A stretch of DNA of 27,686 bases, from UHGV virus genome UHGV-0385766, one strand, 5' to 3'. Of this stretch, positions 1,470-18,539 are shown in pieces. How positions within the stretch are numbered: position 1 is the stretch's first letter; each line of letters opens with the position of its first letter. Under the pieces are notes generated by a model that was not told where the DNA came from, ran no database searches, and saw nothing but the letters and a program-made list of their open reading frames with translations. Origin of the DNA: a virus. The position numbers were made by a program, and so were the translations under genes.

Positions 1470-2545
1470 ACGACAATGTCACGCTACGGGTAAATGGCCG
1501 GGAGTGGAATGGCTGGACATCGGTGCGCATCGGTGCCGGTATTGAACGGCTGGCGCGGGATTTCAGTGTGGAGATCACCCGCCAGTGGCCGGGAGATGAG
1601 GGTATCACCACGCTTCAGCCGCGCATTAAAAACGGTTCAAAAGTGGAAGTGCTGATTGGTGATGAGCTGGTGATCACCGGCTGGGTGGAGGCGACGCCCG
1701 TTCGTTACGATGCCCGTTCGGTCAGCACCGGTATTGCCGGACGCAGTCTGACCGCTGACCTGATTGACTGTGCAGCCGAACCGACACAGTTTAACGGACG
1801 CTCGCTGGTGCAGATTGCGCAGGCGCTTGCTGCGCCTTTCGGCATTGAGGTGGTGAACAGCGGTGCGCCGTCGGGTGTTATTCCTGATGTTCAGCCTGAT
1901 CACGGTGAAACGGTGATTGAGGTAATCAACAAAATACTCGGTCAGCAGCAGGCACTGGCTTACGACGACCCGCACGGCAGGCTGGTGATTGGCGGTATTG
2001 GCTCAACGCGGGCACATACTGCGCTGGTACTCGGGGAAAACATCCTTTCCTGCGATACGGAGAAGAGTATCCGGGAGCGGTTTTCTGTTTACCAGGTGGC
2101 GGGGCAGCGTGCCGGAAACGACGATGATTTCGGTGAGGCCACCACCACCGCGCTGCGGGCCCGCACAGAGGACGCATTTATTGCCCGTTACCGTCCGATG
2201 TATATCAGGCAGACAGGGCAGGCTACGGGGGCAGGCTGTATTGCCCGTGCGGACTTTGAAGCCAGACAACGGGCGGCGCGGACGGATGAAACCACCTATG
2301 TGGTGCAGGGCTGGCGACAGGGTAACGGTACGCTGTGGCAGCCCAACCAGCGGGTGATTGTCTTTGATCCGGTCTGTGGTTTCGACAATACCGAACTGCT
2401 TGTTTCGGAAGTCACGTTTACTCAGGACCAGAACGGCACCCTGACGGAAATCCGTGTCGGCCCGCCTGATGCTTATCTGCCTGAACCCGAAGCCCCCGGC
2501 GCGCGGAAAAAGAAAAAAGCCAGAGTACAGGAGGACCCGTTCTGA
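1466..2545 (+). CDS. Mu P / gp44-like tail protein (baseplate hub)
   Basis: 359-aa ORF in conserved position after the N-like gene; start overlaps upstream stop; family recognition from memory. Confidence 0.75.
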   Translation: MNDNVTLRVNGREWNGWTSVRIGAGIERLARDFSVEITRQWPGDEGITTLQPRIKNGSKVEVLIGDELVITGWVEATPVRYDARSVSTGIAGRSLTADLIDCAAEPTQFNGRSLVQIAQALAAPFGIEVVNSGAPSGVIPDVQPDHGETVIEVINKILGQQQALAYDDPHGRLVIGGIGSTRAHTALVLGENILSCDTEKSIRERFSVYQVAGQRAGNDDDFGEATTTALRARTEDAFIARYRPMYIRQTGQATGAGCIARADFEARQRAARTDETTYVVQGWRQGNGTLWQPNQRVIVFDPVCGFDNTELLVSEVTFTQDQNGTLTEIRVGPPDAYLPEPEAPGARKKKKARVQEDPF

Positions 2546-15706: not shown

Positions 15707-16069
15707 TTAATGACCTGCTGCGCGGAGTTTTCCGTCAGGTTCACCGGCAAGAGTCAGTAATTGTCCCTGGTCTTCCTGCAGAATAGTCAGGCGACCACCG
15801 CGATTGACATACATCGGCGTTTCGGTGGTGTCTTCTTCGGAAATTTTCCCGCGGTTAGTTGGGCGAACATATGAGAGTTTGTGTTTGATTTTCACACGGT
15901 TCTCATCAAACGGTTCGATTTCCAGATTGAGTGAGACCTTCCCTTTGGTTTTCGTGTTCATCACACCGGAAGCGACTTCACTGAGAACTGCGCCGATTTT
16001 GGTTTCAAATACGCCGCCGTCCAGCTCCCCGATAAATGCCTGCACATCAGTACTGCGTTCGCTAGCCAT
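15707..16069 (-). CDS. YfdP-like protein
   Basis: Start MASERSTDVQ at 16069 with GAGGAG Shine-Dalgarno (120 aa); the track ORF extends to 16255 via a TTG start over a structured leader. Confidence 0.5.
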   Translation of the reverse strand: MASERSTDVQAFIGELDGGVFETKIGAVLSEVASGVMNTKTKGKVSLNLEIEPFDENRVKIKHKLSYVRPTNRGKISEEDTTETPMYVNRGGRLTILQEDQGQLLTLAGEPDGKLRAAGH

Positions 16070-16117
16070 TTTGCTGCTCCTCATCATATCGACCCTGCAA
16101 GGTCGGTTGGTTTCTCC

Positions 16118-16206
16118 ACAAAACAGAGAAGAACACCTGCGGTGGCAGCCGCCCGGATGGATTGGGTTATGAGCCCGTCGTCCGGTGATGCTCTTCTCTG
16201 TTTTGT
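16118..16206 (-). other. 15-bp perfect inverted repeat forming a long stem in the leader of the YfdP-like gene
   Basis: ACAAAACAGAGAAGA (16118-16132) and TCTTCTCTGTTTTGT (16192-16206) are exact reverse complements separated by 59 nt; non-coding. Confidence 0.6.
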
Positions 16207-16250
16207 AAAAAGAGCGGTACCAGCCGGAAGCAAGTGTACAAACTGGTACC
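16205..16250 (-). terminator. tL-like intrinsic terminator within the leftward operon
   Basis: GGTACCAG (16216-16223) pairs with CTGGTACC (16243-16250); on the minus strand the stem is followed by GCUCUUUUU. Confidence 0.45.
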
Positions 16251-16510
16251 GCCAAAGCAGTGGCTGTTGTGGTGACCGGTGCTGATCTCCGGCTTGCGGT
16301 TATTTCAGACTCTCACGGGCGTTTAATTGCCCCGCCGAACAGCTCTTTTCCGCAATAGCTGCAATGTCTTTCGCGCATCAGCCTGCGCATTCACCACAAC
16401 GCTAAGGATTCTCTCTGGTTGAAAATACTTAGCTGTTATGTGCCTGTCTTTTCACCACTTCAGGCTCGGTGGTATCTTGGTGTTTTCATATAGCCAAGAA
16501 GGAAATAGTT

Positions 16511-16702
16511 ATGACCAAAGAAGAAAAAATTCTTTATTTATTCCAACTATCGGTTAAGACTCACACTGCATATCAGACTGCTGCCATGACATCAGATAAA
16601 AATTACAGTACGTCAGAAAACCCGATAGACGACATAAGCAAGCTTTACGATAAGTTCGAAGCACTACTCGATAAAAAGTTTGCTGAGGCTGGGCTTGAGT
16701 GA
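16511..16702 (+). CDS. Hypothetical small protein (63 aa), opposite in orientation to the surrounding operon
   Basis: ATG at 16511 with AAGGAAA Shine-Dalgarno 7 nt upstream; the 3' end overlaps a convergent minus-strand ORF by 39 nt. Confidence 0.4.
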   Translation: MTKEEKILYLFQLSVKTHTAYQTAAMTSDKNYSTSENPIDDISKLYDKFEALLDKKFAEAGLE

Positions 16703-16840
16703 TTGTTGAATAATCGACAAAACCCAACTTAAATTTTCGTCAGTGGGCTCGATGCCATGTGCGGTGAGCTCACTTTTCAAAACTCCAAGCAATTCAGAGC
16801 TGATTTTCAATATATCTGCTTGATTTCTAACTATTCCCAC
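16664..16840 (-). CDS. Hypothetical small protein (58 aa)
   Basis: GTG at 16840 preceded by GGAGG (5-nt spacer); the track ATG at 16870 lacks a Shine-Dalgarno. Confidence 0.4.
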   Translation of the reverse strand: MGIVRNQADILKISSELLGVLKSELTAHGIEPTDENLSWVLSIIQQSLKPSLSKLFIE

Positions 16841-16929
16841 TTTTTCCTCCCTTGGTCTACGCGCGGTCATGTTTTACGCCCAAACGACTTCACAGTTATT
16901 GTTTAAAATCTGGACTTTCATTTTGTTCT

Positions 16930-17133
16930 TTAACCTCCAGATTTCCGCGCATCTAAAGGCGCATTCTCATTTGGTGTGAACTGAATAGTTGTGCTGATAT
17001 TGATTAATGCCCAGACACACAAGACTACGCACTCAGAGCAGATAGCAACTTCATCTTTTCCGCCTTTGGCGATGATTTTTTTTGCCTGCAGCTCGTTTGC
17101 GCCACAAAACGAGCATGTGAAATAACGGTTCAT
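16930..17133 (-). CDS. Small zinc-ribbon protein (CxxC...CxxC), first gene after pL
   Basis: MNRYFTCSFCGANEL...ICSECV; alternative upstream ATG at 17151. Confidence 0.55.
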   Translation of the reverse strand: MNRYFTCSFCGANELQAKKIIAKGGKDEVAICSECVVLCVWALINISTTIQFTPNENAPLDARKSGG

Positions 17134-17243
17134 TTGCGCTCTCTTACACATAGTATTTAACGAATCATCCGGTCATTCATACGCCACCGGCGGCTACTTC
17201 GTGGGCGTCCTGCCTGTTCGTTACTGCAACATCTTTAAGTTGT

Positions 17244-17272
17244 AATCTAGTTGTTGTTTTGGTTGTTGTCAA
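17244..17272 (-). promoter_or_regulatory. pL-like leftward early promoter
   Basis: On the minus strand: TTGACA (complement of 17267-17272), 17-bp spacer, TAGATT (complement of 17244-17249). Confidence 0.5.
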
Positions 17273-17276
17273 CAAC
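17262..17276. promoter_or_regulatory. Operator-like 15-bp perfect palindrome overlapping the pL -35
   Basis: GTTGTTG-T-CAACAAC; contains the ACAACTTT-type motif that recurs at oR. Confidence 0.5.
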
Positions 17277-17334
17277 TTTATGTGGTTTTGACGGATGTGA
17301 AATGAGGGCAAGGGTTATCAAAAAAGGAGGTTGT

Positions 17335-17439
17335 ATGGACGATGCGCTTTTAATTACACAAGGGACACTTTCCTTCCGTGATTGGAAACTCTCAAATCAC
17401 GGGAGGAAGATTGAAAAGGCGGGTAATAATGGTAACTAA
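17335..17439 (+). CDS. Possible small ORF (34 aa) between oL and the 3' end of cI
   Basis: AGGAGG (17325-17330) 4 nt before ATG 17335; contains an 8-bp inverted repeat CCGTGATT/AATCACGG (17376-17383 / 17395-17402); short and unsupported by homology. Confidence 0.25.
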   Translation: MDDALLITQGTLSFRDWKLSNHGRKIEKAGNNGN

Positions 17440-17466
17440 ATTTCTGAAGGAAGGTTTTTTGATGCA

Positions 17467-18153
17467 TTACCAAGTGCGCGATGACCAGAATACTCTACCT
17501 ATAACGTGAATTCTGGAACGCCTATCTTCGAAGGTGAGTATTTCATCTGGATACTCATCTTTATTGAAACTTCTTAGAATCAGACCACCGTCAGGTAAAT
17601 TGATCAATATTTTAACTCTAAGTAATACGCCATCACGTATGGCATAAAGATCCCCATCACGAATAGGAACCGTTTGGGAAACATCAACAGCAACAAAATC
17701 TCCATTGTTAAGTACAGGTAGTAAACTATTGCCCCAAATTTTTACGATCTTTGCATTGGAGACACATACACCAGCTTTTCTTAAATCAATCCTTCTTAGC
17801 GGGAACCAGTCTACAGTTGATTCAACTATTTCAGCCAAACATCCATTACCCGCTGATAACTCGACATCTAGGACTGGAATGTTTGCAAAAATGTCAGGAT
17901 CTAATGCTGTACTTTCAGCCTCCTTTACAACAAGGTCTGGGAAAGACGCGTTATCCTCAATGCCCAATTGCAACCACTTTTGAGAAACCCCTAACACTTT
18001 AGCAATCTCTTTAATTTTCCGAGGCTGTTGAGTTTCTCCATTCTCGATTTTCGCTACGGATTGTTGTGAAAGCCCAATTTTTTCAGCTAGTTGCGCCTGA
18101 CTCATTCCTGCTTTTTCTCTTTCGCTTTTTAGTCTTTCTGCCAATGTTTTCAC
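17467..18153 (-). CDS. cI: CI-like repressor (N-terminal HTH, C-terminal S24 LexA-like peptidase domain)
   Basis: GTG start with GAGGGGG Shine-Dalgarno; HTH QAQLAEKIGLSQQSVAKIENG; Ala-Gly site (SAGNG) and Ser/Lys dyad region (GNSLLP ... LRVK). Confidence 0.9.
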   Translation of the reverse strand: MKTLAERLKSEREKAGMSQAQLAEKIGLSQQSVAKIENGETQQPRKIKEIAKVLGVSQKWLQLGIEDNASFPDLVVKEAESTALDPDIFANIPVLDVELSAGNGCLAEIVESTVDWFPLRRIDLRKAGVCVSNAKIVKIWGNSLLPVLNNGDFVAVDVSQTVPIRDGDLYAIRDGVLLRVKILINLPDGGLILRSFNKDEYPDEILTFEDRRSRIHVIGRVFWSSRTW

Positions 18154-18182: not shown

Positions 18183-18266
18183 ACAACTTTATGTTTTAGC
18201 TTTCCAACATCTAAAAGTTGTGATAAAAGTTGTTGTAGTTGTATAATCGAAGTTATCAACAACTTT
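18183..18266. promoter_or_regulatory. oR-like operator region with repeated 8-mers
   Basis: ACAACTTT at 18183-18190 and 18259-18266; inverse AAAGTTGT at 18214-18221 and 18226-18233; the same 12-mer TCAACAACTTTA occurs at oL (17269-17280) and oR (18255-18266). Confidence 0.5.
18218..18247 (+). promoter_or_regulatory. pR-like rightward early promoter
   Basis: TTGTGA (18218-18223), 18-bp spacer, consensus TATAAT (18242-18247); cro-like ATG at 18291 with AGGAGA Shine-Dalgarno. Confidence 0.55.
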
Positions 18267-18290
18267 ACTACTTACAGATAGGAGAAAGCT

Positions 18291-18539
18291 ATGACACCTG
18301 AGCAATTAGCCTTATCAGAGGCAATCGCTCTGGCTGGTGGTCAATCAGAATTGGCTCGGAAGCTCACAGCCAGCAGTGGTCGTTTAGTAAAGCAACAACA
18401 TGTCTGGAACTGGTTGAACAGAGAAAAGCGTCCCCCTGCAAAACTCTCGATATTTATTGAAATGACCACTGGCGTATCAAAAGAAAAATTACGTCCAGAT
18501 ATTTTTCAAAAGATTAAAGACTTATCAGATGGAAAGTAA
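18291..18539 (+). CDS. cro: Cro-like HTH regulator (YdaS/Cro family)
   Basis: 82-aa ORF divergent from cI across the operator region. Confidence 0.75.
   Translation: MTPEQLALSEAIALAGGQSELARKLTASSGRLVKQQHVWNWLNREKRPPAKLSIFIEMTTGVSKEKLRPDIFQKIKDLSDGK

What the first reader, a model, noticed from the sequence alone, without database searches (positions are those of the whole stretch)
16511..16840. Convergent overlapping small-gene pair, each with a strong ribosome-binding site
A + strand ORF (16511-16702) sits inside the leftward operon and overlaps the 3' end of a - strand ORF (16664-16840) by 39 bp. Both have good Shine-Dalgarno sequences. Transcripts from the two strands would be antisense over the overlap, as in antisense-controlled regulators or toxin/antitoxin-like pairs. 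At least one may be a real antisense-regulated gene.
Basis: seen in the sequence. Interest (0 to 1): 0.45.

Follow-up and report, generated by a model that had tools for sequence, protein, structure and literature searches.

The report
Paired small genes at prophage sieB slot
Both small overlapping genes are real, conserved protein-coding genes that always travel together in lambda-like prophages, and the rightward one sits where the phage exclusion gene sieB normally sits, behind the same conserved promoter and antisense-RNA (sas) element, so it is probably made in the dormant prophage and shut off by antisense RNA when the phage wakes up.

Summary
The + ORF is 16511-16702 (63 aa). The - ORF is 16664-16840 (58 aa, GTG start). 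Both have Shine-Dalgarno sequences and they overlap by 39 bp.

Neither is a shadow ORF. In 8 divergent loci both stay open, with pN/pS of 0.22 and 0.36.

The two families co-occur in exactly the same 117 of 236 loci. They are always convergent and, where both are intact, their 3' ends overlap by 15-45 nt. This holds down to about 40% identity (Edwardsiella phage EPP-1).

The 70 nt upstream of the + ORF (16439-16510) are homologous to the region upstream of sieB in P22, lambda and Rac. That region is the template of the P22 antisense RNA sas. The element forms two hairpins, one of which covaries. In other phages it precedes more than 40 unrelated 'cargo' genes.

The - ORF belongs to the repressor-controlled leftward (PL-like) early operon.

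Best reading: the + gene is expressed in the lysogen from the sieB slot and is silenced by a PL-derived sas-like antisense RNA. It is paired with a cognate early gene whose product may neutralise it. The protein functions are unknown. A toxin-antitoxin reading is not supported. RefSeq and the SfII record do not annotate the - ORF.

The parts
16439..16510 (.). Conserved Psie/sas-like cassette upstream of the + ORF. It carries the promoter and leader of the + gene on the + strand, and is the template of a two-hairpin antisense RNA on the - strand.
   Evidence: It is more conserved than the flanking CDS in all relatives, including EPP-1, L110 and L111. Positions 16439-16473 are 94% identical to lambda and P22 just upstream of sieB. 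It aligns with the P22, lambda and Rac sieB upstream regions. The P22 sas RNA sequence in PMC13397905 Table 2 is the reverse complement of the P22 counterpart.
16451..16478 (+). Predicted sigma-70 promoter of the + ORF: TTCACC (16451-56), 16-nt spacer, TGg-TATCTT (extended -10, 16470-78). The inferred TSS is about 16484-16487.
   Evidence: Read from the sequence. The TGGTATNCT motif is conserved in 'short-type' elements. By analogy, the annotated P22 sieB TSS falls at the equivalent loop sequence. It scores 8/12 and so falls below the consensus scanner's threshold. Not experimentally shown.
16454..16473 (-). Hairpin 1 of the sas-like RNA (ACCAC-N10-GUGGU). It is nearly invariant.
   Evidence: One match in the window against 0.01 expected. 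The five pairs are invariant in 19 elements.
16475..16499 (-). Hairpin 2 of the sas-like RNA (UCUUGG-N13-CCAAGA). The arm at 16494-16499 abuts and overlaps the SD of the + ORF.
   Evidence: Complementarity is kept with many different arm sequences, for example TCTCG/CGAGA, TGCTGG/CCAGCA, TACTGG/CCAGTA and TCCTTTTA/TAAAAGGA. A Watson-Crick stem of at least 6 bp occurs in 53% of 85 distinct elements against 1.9% of shuffles. RNAalifold predicts it with covarying pairs: CG8/AU3/GC3/UG3/UA1 and UA8/CG8.
16511..16702 (+). 63-aa gene, a cargo at the sieB slot. It is predicted to be a two-helix soluble protein of unknown function (phrog_2605; WP_000159356.1; SfII_36).
   Evidence: Homologues reach down to about 40% identity. 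pN/pS is 0.22 with no stops or indels. The AF2 model is a helical hairpin with pLDDT 73.
16664..16840 (-). 58-aa gene (GTG start) in the PL early-left operon. It is a two-helix 'hairpin domain' (phrog_15476). RefSeq and the SfII record do not annotate it.
   Evidence: The start codon and SD are conserved in position. pN/pS is 0.36 with no stops or indels. AF2 pLDDT is 69. The same domain forms the C-terminus of 92-201-aa phage proteins. It is not annotated in 63 E. coli genomes or in SfII.
16664..16702 (.). 39-bp dual-coding 3' overlap of the two genes.
   Evidence: The overlap is 39, 27, 33, 15 or 45 nt in relatives.
16664..16746 (+). Predicted 28-bp interrupted hairpin around the + ORF stop. 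Its right arm is 16714-16746. Function unknown.
   Evidence: RNAalifold consensus on 7 divergent modules. z is -3.0 in L014 but only -1.5 in the window. Third-position diversity of the - ORF falls to 0.12 in 16703-16738 against 0.50 elsewhere (p = 7e-5). There is no covariation, and the hairpin is absent in the 27-nt and 33-nt overlap groups.
16930..17151 (-). ClpX C4-type zinc-finger ORF (73 aa), the first gene of the PL operon here. Most relatives lack it. In one relative (P0040) it is fused to the hairpin domain.
   Evidence: Pfam PF06689, E = 6.7e-11. Annotated by PGAP. Relatives place the PL leader directly next to the 58-aa gene.
17161..17220 (-). Conserved leader of the PL transcript. 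Function unknown.
   Evidence: 38-40 nt are 97-100% identical in divergent loci. Its fold is no better than shuffles.
17227..17289 (-). PL-like promoter (TTGACA-17-TAGATT, 17272-17244) with flanking CAAC-N8-GTTG operators that recur in the OR region.

Best explanation
The locus is a two-gene accessory module at the 'sieB slot' of a lambdoid (SfII/SfV/CPS-53-like) prophage.

**The + gene.** The 63-aa + gene is a cargo gene. It is transcribed rightward, against the early-left operon, from a Psie-like promoter inside a conserved 70-nt cassette. It is therefore expected to be made in the lysogen, when PL is repressed.

**The - gene.** The 58-aa - gene is an early gene of the repressor-controlled PL operon and is expected to be made only after induction or infection.

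**The switch.** When PL fires, leftward transcription reads antisense through the + gene and through the cassette. The - strand of the cassette folds into two hairpins and is complementary to the leader, SD and start codon of the + gene. It is a homologue of P22 sas RNA. It should block translation of the + gene and, together with transcriptional collision, shut it off. The 3' overlap gives a second stretch of sense/antisense RNA.

**The pairing.** The two protein families are never found apart. I therefore infer that the early 58-aa protein acts on the lysogen-expressed 63-aa protein or on its pathway, as a self-immunity or escape function analogous to Esc for SieB.

**Status of each step**
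- Shown: both genes are real and conserved; they co-occur strictly; the cassette is homologous to the sieB/sas region; hairpin 2 covaries; PL carries operators.
- Inferred: promoter use, production of the antisense RNA, timing of expression, and any protein-protein relationship.
For: **Gene reality**
- Homologues exist down to 40-64% identity.
- No stops or indels occur in 8 divergent loci, and third-position variation dominates.
- pN/pS is 0.22 and 0.36, against 0.35-2.6 in the other frames. The only other frames below 0.7 are the antisense frames that share third positions with the real frame, and all other frames carry stop codons.

**Pairing**
- All 35 distinct modules are convergent. The overlap is 39, 27 or 33 nt in 33 of them, and two have a disrupted + ORF.
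- HMMs for the two families hit exactly the same 117 of 236 loci. None of about 119 loci that have the cassette with other cargo has the hairpin domain.
- The pairing persists in EPP-1 (121-aa partner), L110 (zinc-finger fusion partner), L111 (140-aa partner) and a borderline remote pair in L173.

**sieB-slot identity**
- 16439-16473 is 94% identical to lambda and P22 upstream of sieB.
- The P22 record annotates the sieB promoter, TSS and CDS immediately downstream.
- The same gene order is seen in lambda (sieB convergent with N), P22 (gene 24) and Rac (ydaF, 4-nt overlap).
- The sequenced P22 sas RNA is the reverse complement of this region, including both hairpins (PMC13397905 Table 2).
- The function of sas is summarised in PMC12197685 and PMC7067206.

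**RNA structure**.

**Portable cassette**: the element precedes more than 40 unrelated cargo proteins, including SieB-like membrane proteins and zinc-ribbon proteins.

**PL control**: a promoter with operators shared with OR.
Against: - There are no expression data for this phage. The + promoter is only an 8/12 consensus match with an extended -10 and was not picked up by the scanner.
- The MFE fold of the window's - strand element alone is not better than shuffles and prefers another structure.
- The strand that folds cannot be decided from sequence. The wobble asymmetry test gave 76 against 79. The stability advantage of the - strand (71 of 85) may reflect its G/U richness.
- Whether sas is processed from PL or has its own promoter rests on my memory of Ranade & Poteete 1993, which I could not read.
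- Neither protein resembles SieB/Esc or any known family or fold.
- Strict co-occurrence could be mere physical linkage, because the genes overlap.
Confidence: 0.6

Rival explanations
1. Linkage only. The + gene is an independent lysogen-expressed cargo (moron) and the - gene is an unrelated early lytic gene. They co-occur because their 3' ends overlap, so recombination cannot separate them without damaging one.
For: - The overlap makes them a single recombination unit.
- Partner genes have been swapped upstream of the hairpin domain (58, 64, 92, 121, 140-201 aa), as expected if breakpoints fall just outside the overlapping part.
- Convergent 3' overlaps of 4-63 nt are common at this slot with unrelated cargo and partner genes.
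Against: - The pair is retained from 100% down to about 40% identity, with overlap lengths that changed (15, 27, 33, 39, 45 nt). The junction has therefore been remodelled repeatedly without loss of either gene.
- Both genes remain under purifying selection.
- None of about 119 loci with other cargo has the domain.
Confidence: 0.3
2. Antidote logic the other way round (toxin-antitoxin-like). The early 58-aa protein harms the host, as Kil does. The lysogen-expressed 63-aa protein protects the lysogen against leaky PL expression.
For: - Strict co-occurrence.
- Opposite, mutually exclusive promoters.
- Small early-left proteins of lambdoid phages are often toxic, for example Kil and KilR, which are annotated nearby in lambda, P22 and Rac.
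Against: - No similarity to any TA or defence model.
- Neither protein is hydrophobic.
- The cassette in front of the + gene otherwise drives exclusion-type cargo such as SieB. That fits a function directed at other phages rather than at its own operon.
Confidence: 0.12
3. The 39-bp 3' overlap itself is the regulator: convergent mRNAs pair at their 3' ends and are cleaved (for example by RNase III) or interfere, as OOP RNA does with lambda cII.
For: - The overlap is conserved as an arrangement.
- Synonymous constraint extends 36 nt beyond the overlap.
- A 28-bp hairpin spanning the junction is predicted in the 39-nt group.
Against: - The hairpin has no covariation and is absent in the 27-nt and 33-nt overlap groups.
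- The overlap length is not conserved, and P22 and lambda have none.
- If the promoters are used reciprocally, both mRNAs are rarely present together.
- The strongly conserved non-coding element is at the 5' end, not the 3' end.
Confidence: 0.2
4. One of the two is a non-functional shadow ORF.
For: - PGAP and the SfII authors annotate only the + ORF.
Against: - Only 39 of 177 or 192 nt overlap, so neither ORF can be a shadow of the other.
- Both show pN/pS well below 1, stay open without indels, and have a positionally conserved start and SD.
- The - ORF domain occurs in many longer proteins.
Confidence: 0.03

Closest known systems
P22/lambda sieB-esc locus with sas antisense RNA (Ranade & Poteete 1993; P22 record NC_002371.2)
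   Same: - Same genomic slot and orientation: rightward gene convergent with the first PL gene.
- Homologous upstream cassette with both hairpins.
- Expected expression from the prophage and antisense shut-off by the lytic phage.
   Different: - The cargo is a 63-aa soluble helical protein, not the roughly 190-aa membrane protein SieB (no PF14163).
- There is no conserved internal Esc-like start. Met26 is absent in distant homologues.
- The cassette is the 'short type': the start codon follows hairpin 2 directly, and the promoter must lie at hairpin 1.
- The genes overlap by 39 bp, whereas P22 has a 20-nt gap and lambda has none.
Rac prophage sieB / ydaF-ydaG (E. coli K-12)
   Same: - sieB is convergent with small early genes next to the repressor racR and has a 4-nt 3' overlap.
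- A diverged copy of the cassette has a compensated hairpin 2 (TCTCG/CGAGA).
   Different: - The proteins are different: SieB, and YdaF with DUF1391.
- Rac also has an annotated sRNA, KilS, further left.
Lambda OOP RNA / cII
   Same: Antisense RNA overlapping the 3' end of a convergent early gene.
   Different: - OOP is a short non-coding RNA with its own promoter and terminator.
- Here both overlapping transcripts are mRNAs, and the conserved antisense element is at the 5' end of the + gene.
Type I toxin-antitoxin loci with convergent 3' overlap (par/fst-RNAII, txpA-ratA, bsrG-SR4)
   Same: Convergent transcription with overlapping 3' ends.
   Different: - In those systems the toxin is a hydrophobic peptide and the antitoxin is a non-coding RNA.
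- Here both partners are conserved soluble proteins.
Phage morons / hypervariable accessory-gene slots (e.g. P2 and P4 defence hotspots)
   Same: A fixed position with conserved flanks and highly variable cargo.
   Different: - The conserved flank here is itself a regulatory cassette, combining a promoter with an antisense RNA template.
- I found no paper in the held library that describes the sieB slot in this way.

Membership tests
Lambdoid sieB slot (Psie/sas cassette plus cargo) | Gene transcribed opposite to PL, convergent with the first early-left gene(s), next to the immunity region | tested here: met
   Window layout compared with P22, lambda and Rac.
Lambdoid sieB slot (Psie/sas cassette plus cargo) | Upstream region homologous to the P22/lambda sieB promoter and sas template, including both hairpins | tested here: met
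   94% identity over 35 nt. Alignment. The sas sequence in PMC13397905. Hairpin conservation and covariation.
Lambdoid sieB slot (Psie/sas cassette plus cargo) | A stable leftward antisense RNA is actually produced and inhibits translation of the cargo | not testable with these tools
   Needs a Northern blot or RNA-seq, plus reporter fusions.
SieB protein family (PF14163) | Sequence homology to SieB; membrane protein | tested here: not met
   No Pfam, NCBIfam or PADLOC hit. AF2 predicts a soluble helical hairpin.
Type I toxin-antitoxin | Small hydrophobic toxin peptide and a non-coding antisense RNA antitoxin | tested here: not met
   Both partners are coding and under purifying selection. No hydrophobic segment is evident in either protein sequence, and AF2 predicts helical hairpins for both.
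Type II toxin-antitoxin | Co-directional bicistronic operon; recognisable toxin or antitoxin folds | tested here: not met
   The genes are convergent. No family or fold hits.
N-type antiterminator (for the - ORF, as an early PL gene) | Arginine-rich N-terminal RNA-binding motif; N homology | tested here: not met
   The sequence MGIVRNQADILK... has no arginine-rich motif. No Pfam hit.
ClpX C4 zinc-finger proteins (neighbour 16930-17151, and N-terminus of fusion P0040) | CxxC...CxxC ClpX-type zinc finger (PF06689) | tested here: met
   Window ORF E = 6.7e-11. P0040 has only a weak pairwise match, E = 0.007, and no Pfam hit at 0.1.

The most novel reading that the evidence does not exclude
The Psie/sas cassette marks a general hypervariable slot in lambdoid phages. 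Prophages plug diverse exclusion or conversion genes into it (more than 40 cargo families seen here), and all are switched off by the same antisense RNA when the phage goes lytic.

The 63-aa/58-aa pair is a new 'exclusion protein plus cognate early antidote' system. The C-terminal hairpin domain of the first PL protein recognises the lysogen-made 63-aa protein. The interchangeable N-terminal domains (ClpX-like zinc finger or a coiled-coil domain, fused or encoded next door) supply the neutralising activity, for example hand-over to ClpXP. This would give the phage self-immunity in the way Esc does for SieB.
Probability: 0.2. Interest if true: 0.75.

Novelty: new variant of a known kind. Interest (0 to 1): 0.5.

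Why it matters
- It adds a real 58-aa gene that RefSeq misses in every one of the 63 complete E. coli genomes that carry the module.
- It shows that two uncharacterised PHROG families form an obligate pair.
- It links the pair to the only partly understood SieB/Esc/sas self-immunity circuit.
- The conserved cassette could be used as a sequence handle to harvest candidate superinfection-exclusion or defence genes from lambdoid prophages.
- The pair offers a small, tractable case of lysogen-versus-lytic reciprocal control by antisense RNA.

Tried and rejected
**Searches that gave nothing informative**
- Rfam, at gathering threshold on the whole window and at E <= 5 on 16000-17600.
- Pfam, NCBIfam and PADLOC for both proteins. 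PHROGs returned only unknown-function families.
- AF2 models of both proteins searched with Foldseek against PDB.
- Profile searches of PDB sequences.

**Hypotheses tested and dropped**
- The two proteins are not homologous to each other (hhalign probability 0.2%).
- I tried to decide which strand forms hairpin 2 by G.U versus A.C asymmetry. The result was inconclusive, 76 against 79.
- Single-sequence folding of the window's cassette and of the PL leader is not better than shuffles.
- I looked by eye in the sequence for sigma-54, CRP, LexA, DnaA and IHF sites in the cassette and found no convincing match.
- I looked for an intrinsic terminator between the convergent genes and found none convincing.
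- An Esc-like internal start at Met26 is rejected because that Met is not conserved.

**Literature**
- Ranade & Poteete 1993 is not held.
- Nothing was found on KilS, or on a 'sieB hotspot'.

**One more family considered**
- The 'MDKxKAVL' partner family in L012 and L176 was considered as a distant hairpin-domain relative. It is not significant (E = 22).

Full report
**1. The observation**

The window is an E. coli lambdoid prophage of the SfII/SfV/CPS-53 type. The queried 901 nt around the finding (16300-17200) are 100% identical to E. coli K-15KW01, and SfII carries 16386-16923 at 99.6%.

The immunity region is clear. A cI-like repressor lies at 17467-18153 (-), a cro-like gene at 18291-18539 (+), and a cII/YmfL-like gene follows.

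Both reported ORFs exist exactly as described.
- The + ORF runs 16511-16702 (63 aa). GAAGGA lies 7 nt before its ATG.
- The - ORF runs 16664-16840 (58 aa from a GTG). GGGAGG lies 5 nt upstream of the GTG.
- They overlap by 39 bp.

PGAP and the SfII authors annotate only the + ORF. The same is true in all 63 of 5,426 complete E. coli genomes that carry the module.

**2. Both are real genes**

Each protein has homologues down to about 64% identity in a 5.8-billion-protein collection. More distant homologues appear in profile or tblastn searches.

Homologues of the - ORF are 58-59 aa. In the DNA alignment their start codon (ATG or GTG) and a G-rich SD sit at the position equivalent to 16840, although the sequences differ. 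The upstream ATG at 16870 is therefore not the start.

In eight divergent loci both frames are open without indels.
- Pooled pN/pS in the non-overlapping parts is 0.22 for the + ORF and 0.36 for the - ORF.
- Variable columns concentrate at third codon positions.
- The other frames give 0.35-2.6. The only ones below 0.7 are the antisense frames that share third positions with the real frame, and all other frames carry stop codons.

Only 39 nt overlap, so neither ORF can be the shadow of the other.

**3. They are an obligate pair**
- All 35 distinct modules recovered through either protein are convergent. In 33 the 3' overlap is 39, 27 or 33 nt. The other two have a disrupted or frameshifted + ORF.
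- Edwardsiella phage EPP-1 has a + ORF homologue at 40% identity. It overlaps by 33 nt a 121-aa gene whose C-terminal 50 residues are the 58-aa domain.
- Two distant hairpin-domain proteins from the exhaustive profile search (P0040, 92 aa; P0030, 140 aa) also have a convergent, overlapping + ORF homologue, with overlaps of 15 and 45 nt.
The other roughly 119 loci were collected only through the upstream DNA element. They carry other genes and have no hairpin domain.
- Even a borderline remote pair appears together in L173.

The two proteins are not homologous to each other. Both are predicted two-helix hairpins. Neither has any family, defence-model, solved-structure or fold match.

The hairpin domain is the C-terminal module of proteins with different N-termini. 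One N-terminus is a 'KQEP' coiled-coil-like region. In P0040 it is a ClpX-like zinc finger. In the window a ClpX-zinc-finger protein is encoded by the adjacent upstream gene, 16930-17151. Most relatives lack that gene.

**4. What the locus is**

The roughly 70 nt upstream of the + ORF (16439-16510) are better conserved than the coding sequences in every relative, including those at 40% protein identity.

In these contigs the element precedes more than 40 unrelated proteins. They include SieB-like membrane proteins and zinc-ribbon proteins, among many others.

Its first half is 94% identical to lambda, P22 and HK620 immediately upstream of sieB. The P22 RefSeq record annotates the sieB promoter, the sieB RNA start and the sieB/esc CDS just downstream.

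The gene order is the same in all of these phages, with sieB convergent with the first PL gene:
- N in lambda, abutting;
- gene 24 in P22, with a 20-nt gap;
- ydaF in Rac, with a 4-nt overlap.

The P22 antisense RNA sas, as sequenced in PMC13397905 (Table 2; 127 nt, minus strand), is the reverse complement of this region. It runs from sieB codon 2 through the leader and both hairpins to ...GACAGGCAC. Reviews describe sas as blocking SieB translation (PMC12197685, PMC7067206).

The window element aligns with the P22, lambda and Rac regions through both hairpins. In the window and in EPP-1 the start codon follows hairpin 2 directly ('short type'). P22, lambda and Rac have a 35-40-nt extension that contains the mapped promoter.

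**5. RNA structure of the cassette**

Hairpin 1 (ACCAC-N10-GTGGT, 16454-16473) is nearly invariant.

Hairpin 2 (TCTTGG-N13-CCAAGA, 16475-16499) keeps complementarity with many different arm sequences.
- A Watson-Crick stem of at least 6 bp anchored at this position occurs in 53% of 85 distinct elements, against 1.9% of shuffles.
- RNAalifold on 19 - strand sequences predicts both hairpins, with two covarying pairs in hairpin 2.

One arm of hairpin 2 overlaps the cargo's SD. The - strand RNA is therefore complementary to the leader, SD and start codon.

Which strand folds cannot be settled from sequence. The P22 data show that the - strand RNA accumulates.

On the + strand I predict the promoter TTCACC-16-TGgTATCTT (16451-16478), with a TSS near 16485. 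The mRNA would then start in the hairpin-2 loop, just as the mapped P22 sieB mRNA starts at the duplicated copy of that loop sequence. This is inference.

**6. The leftward operon**

A TTGACA-17-TAGATT promoter lies at 17272-17244 (-). It is flanked by CAAC-N8-GTTG operators that recur between cI and cro. The ClpX-zinc-finger gene and the 58-aa gene are therefore in a repressor-controlled PL operon. To reach yfdP and yfdQ, that operon must read antisense through the + gene and the cassette.

**7. The 3' junction**

In the 39-nt-overlap group, synonymous diversity of the - ORF falls from 0.50 to 0.12 over 16703-16738, which is 36 nt beyond the dual-coding stretch (p = 7e-5).

A 28-bp interrupted hairpin spanning 16664-16746 is predicted on the + RNA. 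Its five G.U pairs favour that strand. It would explain the extra constraint.

However, the hairpin shows no covariation. It is weak in the window itself (z = -1.5). It is absent in the 27-nt and 33-nt overlap groups. Its role is open: 3' stabiliser, RNase III site or terminator.

**8. Mechanism and verdict**

The most likely mechanism is reciprocal expression, with overall confidence about 0.6.
- The 63-aa cargo is made in the lysogen from the Psie-like promoter.
- On induction, PL transcription collides with it and yields a sas-like antisense RNA that blocks its translation.
- The 58-aa early protein appears at that time.

Strict co-occurrence through repeated remodelling of the junction and of the partner's N-terminus suggests that the early protein acts on the cargo protein or its pathway, as a self-immunity function like Esc. 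This inference has a probability of about 0.35. Simple physical linkage is the main rival.

A toxin-antitoxin classification fails its defining features.

The finding is a new variant of a known arrangement. It involves two uncharacterised protein families and one gene missing from reference annotation.

Noticed in passing
window 16439-16510; loci L113-L232: The Psie/sas-like cassette is a portable element found in at least 120 viral contigs, in front of more than 40 unrelated cargo genes. These include SieB-like membrane proteins, zinc-ribbon proteins and many unknowns. They are often convergent with variable first-PL genes, with 3' overlaps of 4-63 nt. The sieB position therefore looks like a hypervariable accessory-gene slot.
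   Followed up: partly
window 17161-17220 (- strand): The leader of the PL transcript is 97-100% identical over 38-40 nt in otherwise divergent loci. In those loci it sits directly upstream of the 58-aa gene. Here the ClpX-zinc-finger gene is inserted between them. The single-sequence fold is not better than shuffles. Its function (nut- or put-like?) is unknown.
   Followed up: partly
window 16930-17151 (-); protein P0040 (locus L110 2501-2779): A ClpX C4 zinc-finger protein is the first PL gene here. In L110 a similar zinc finger is fused to the hairpin domain in one 92-aa protein. This is a possible 'Rosetta stone' link between the two adjacent window genes.
   Followed up: partly
window 17227-17289 and 18183-18267: Operator-like CAAC-N8-GTTG repeats are shared by the PL-like promoter region and the cI-cro intergenic region. 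An inverted repeat at 17370-17408 after cI, read by eye from the repeat list and sequence, looks like a terminator on the - strand; the terminator scan did not list it.
   Followed up: partly
window 16664-16840 (-): The 58-aa gene is unannotated in all 63 complete E. coli RefSeq genomes that carry the module, and in the phage SfII record. Metagenome gene callers do call it.
   Followed up: yes
L012 2303-3330: Two cassettes lie in tandem. A second copy of the sas-like element has a compensated hairpin 2 (GCTGG/CCAGC) and drives a 69-aa zinc-ribbon cargo convergent with a 108-aa gene. The 58/63-aa pair follows.
   Followed up: partly
window 16300-16407: A segment of about 105 nt between yfdP and the cassette is 98-100% identical to sequences in phage P1 (plp region), Stx phages and mEp460. 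It probably accounts for most of the 2,382 E. coli genomes that matched part of the 901-nt query (not isolated). Its nature was not examined.
   Followed up: no
L233 (E. coli K-12 Rac) 1906-2003 (-) and 2066-2125: Rac has an annotated sRNA, KilS, with an intrinsic terminator just left of its diverged sas-like cassette upstream of sieB. No paper on KilS was found in the library.
   Followed up: partly
window 16703-16738: Synonymous sites of the - ORF are almost frozen for 36 nt beyond the overlap, and ACTTAAATTTTC is invariant. This matches the right arm of a predicted 28-bp hairpin on the + RNA.
   Followed up: partly
window 15707-16255 (-): The mechanical ORF for yfdP extends to a TTG at 16255 (182 aa). 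PGAP annotates 120 aa from 16069. The 370-440 nt between yfdP and the cassette have no assigned feature.
   Followed up: no
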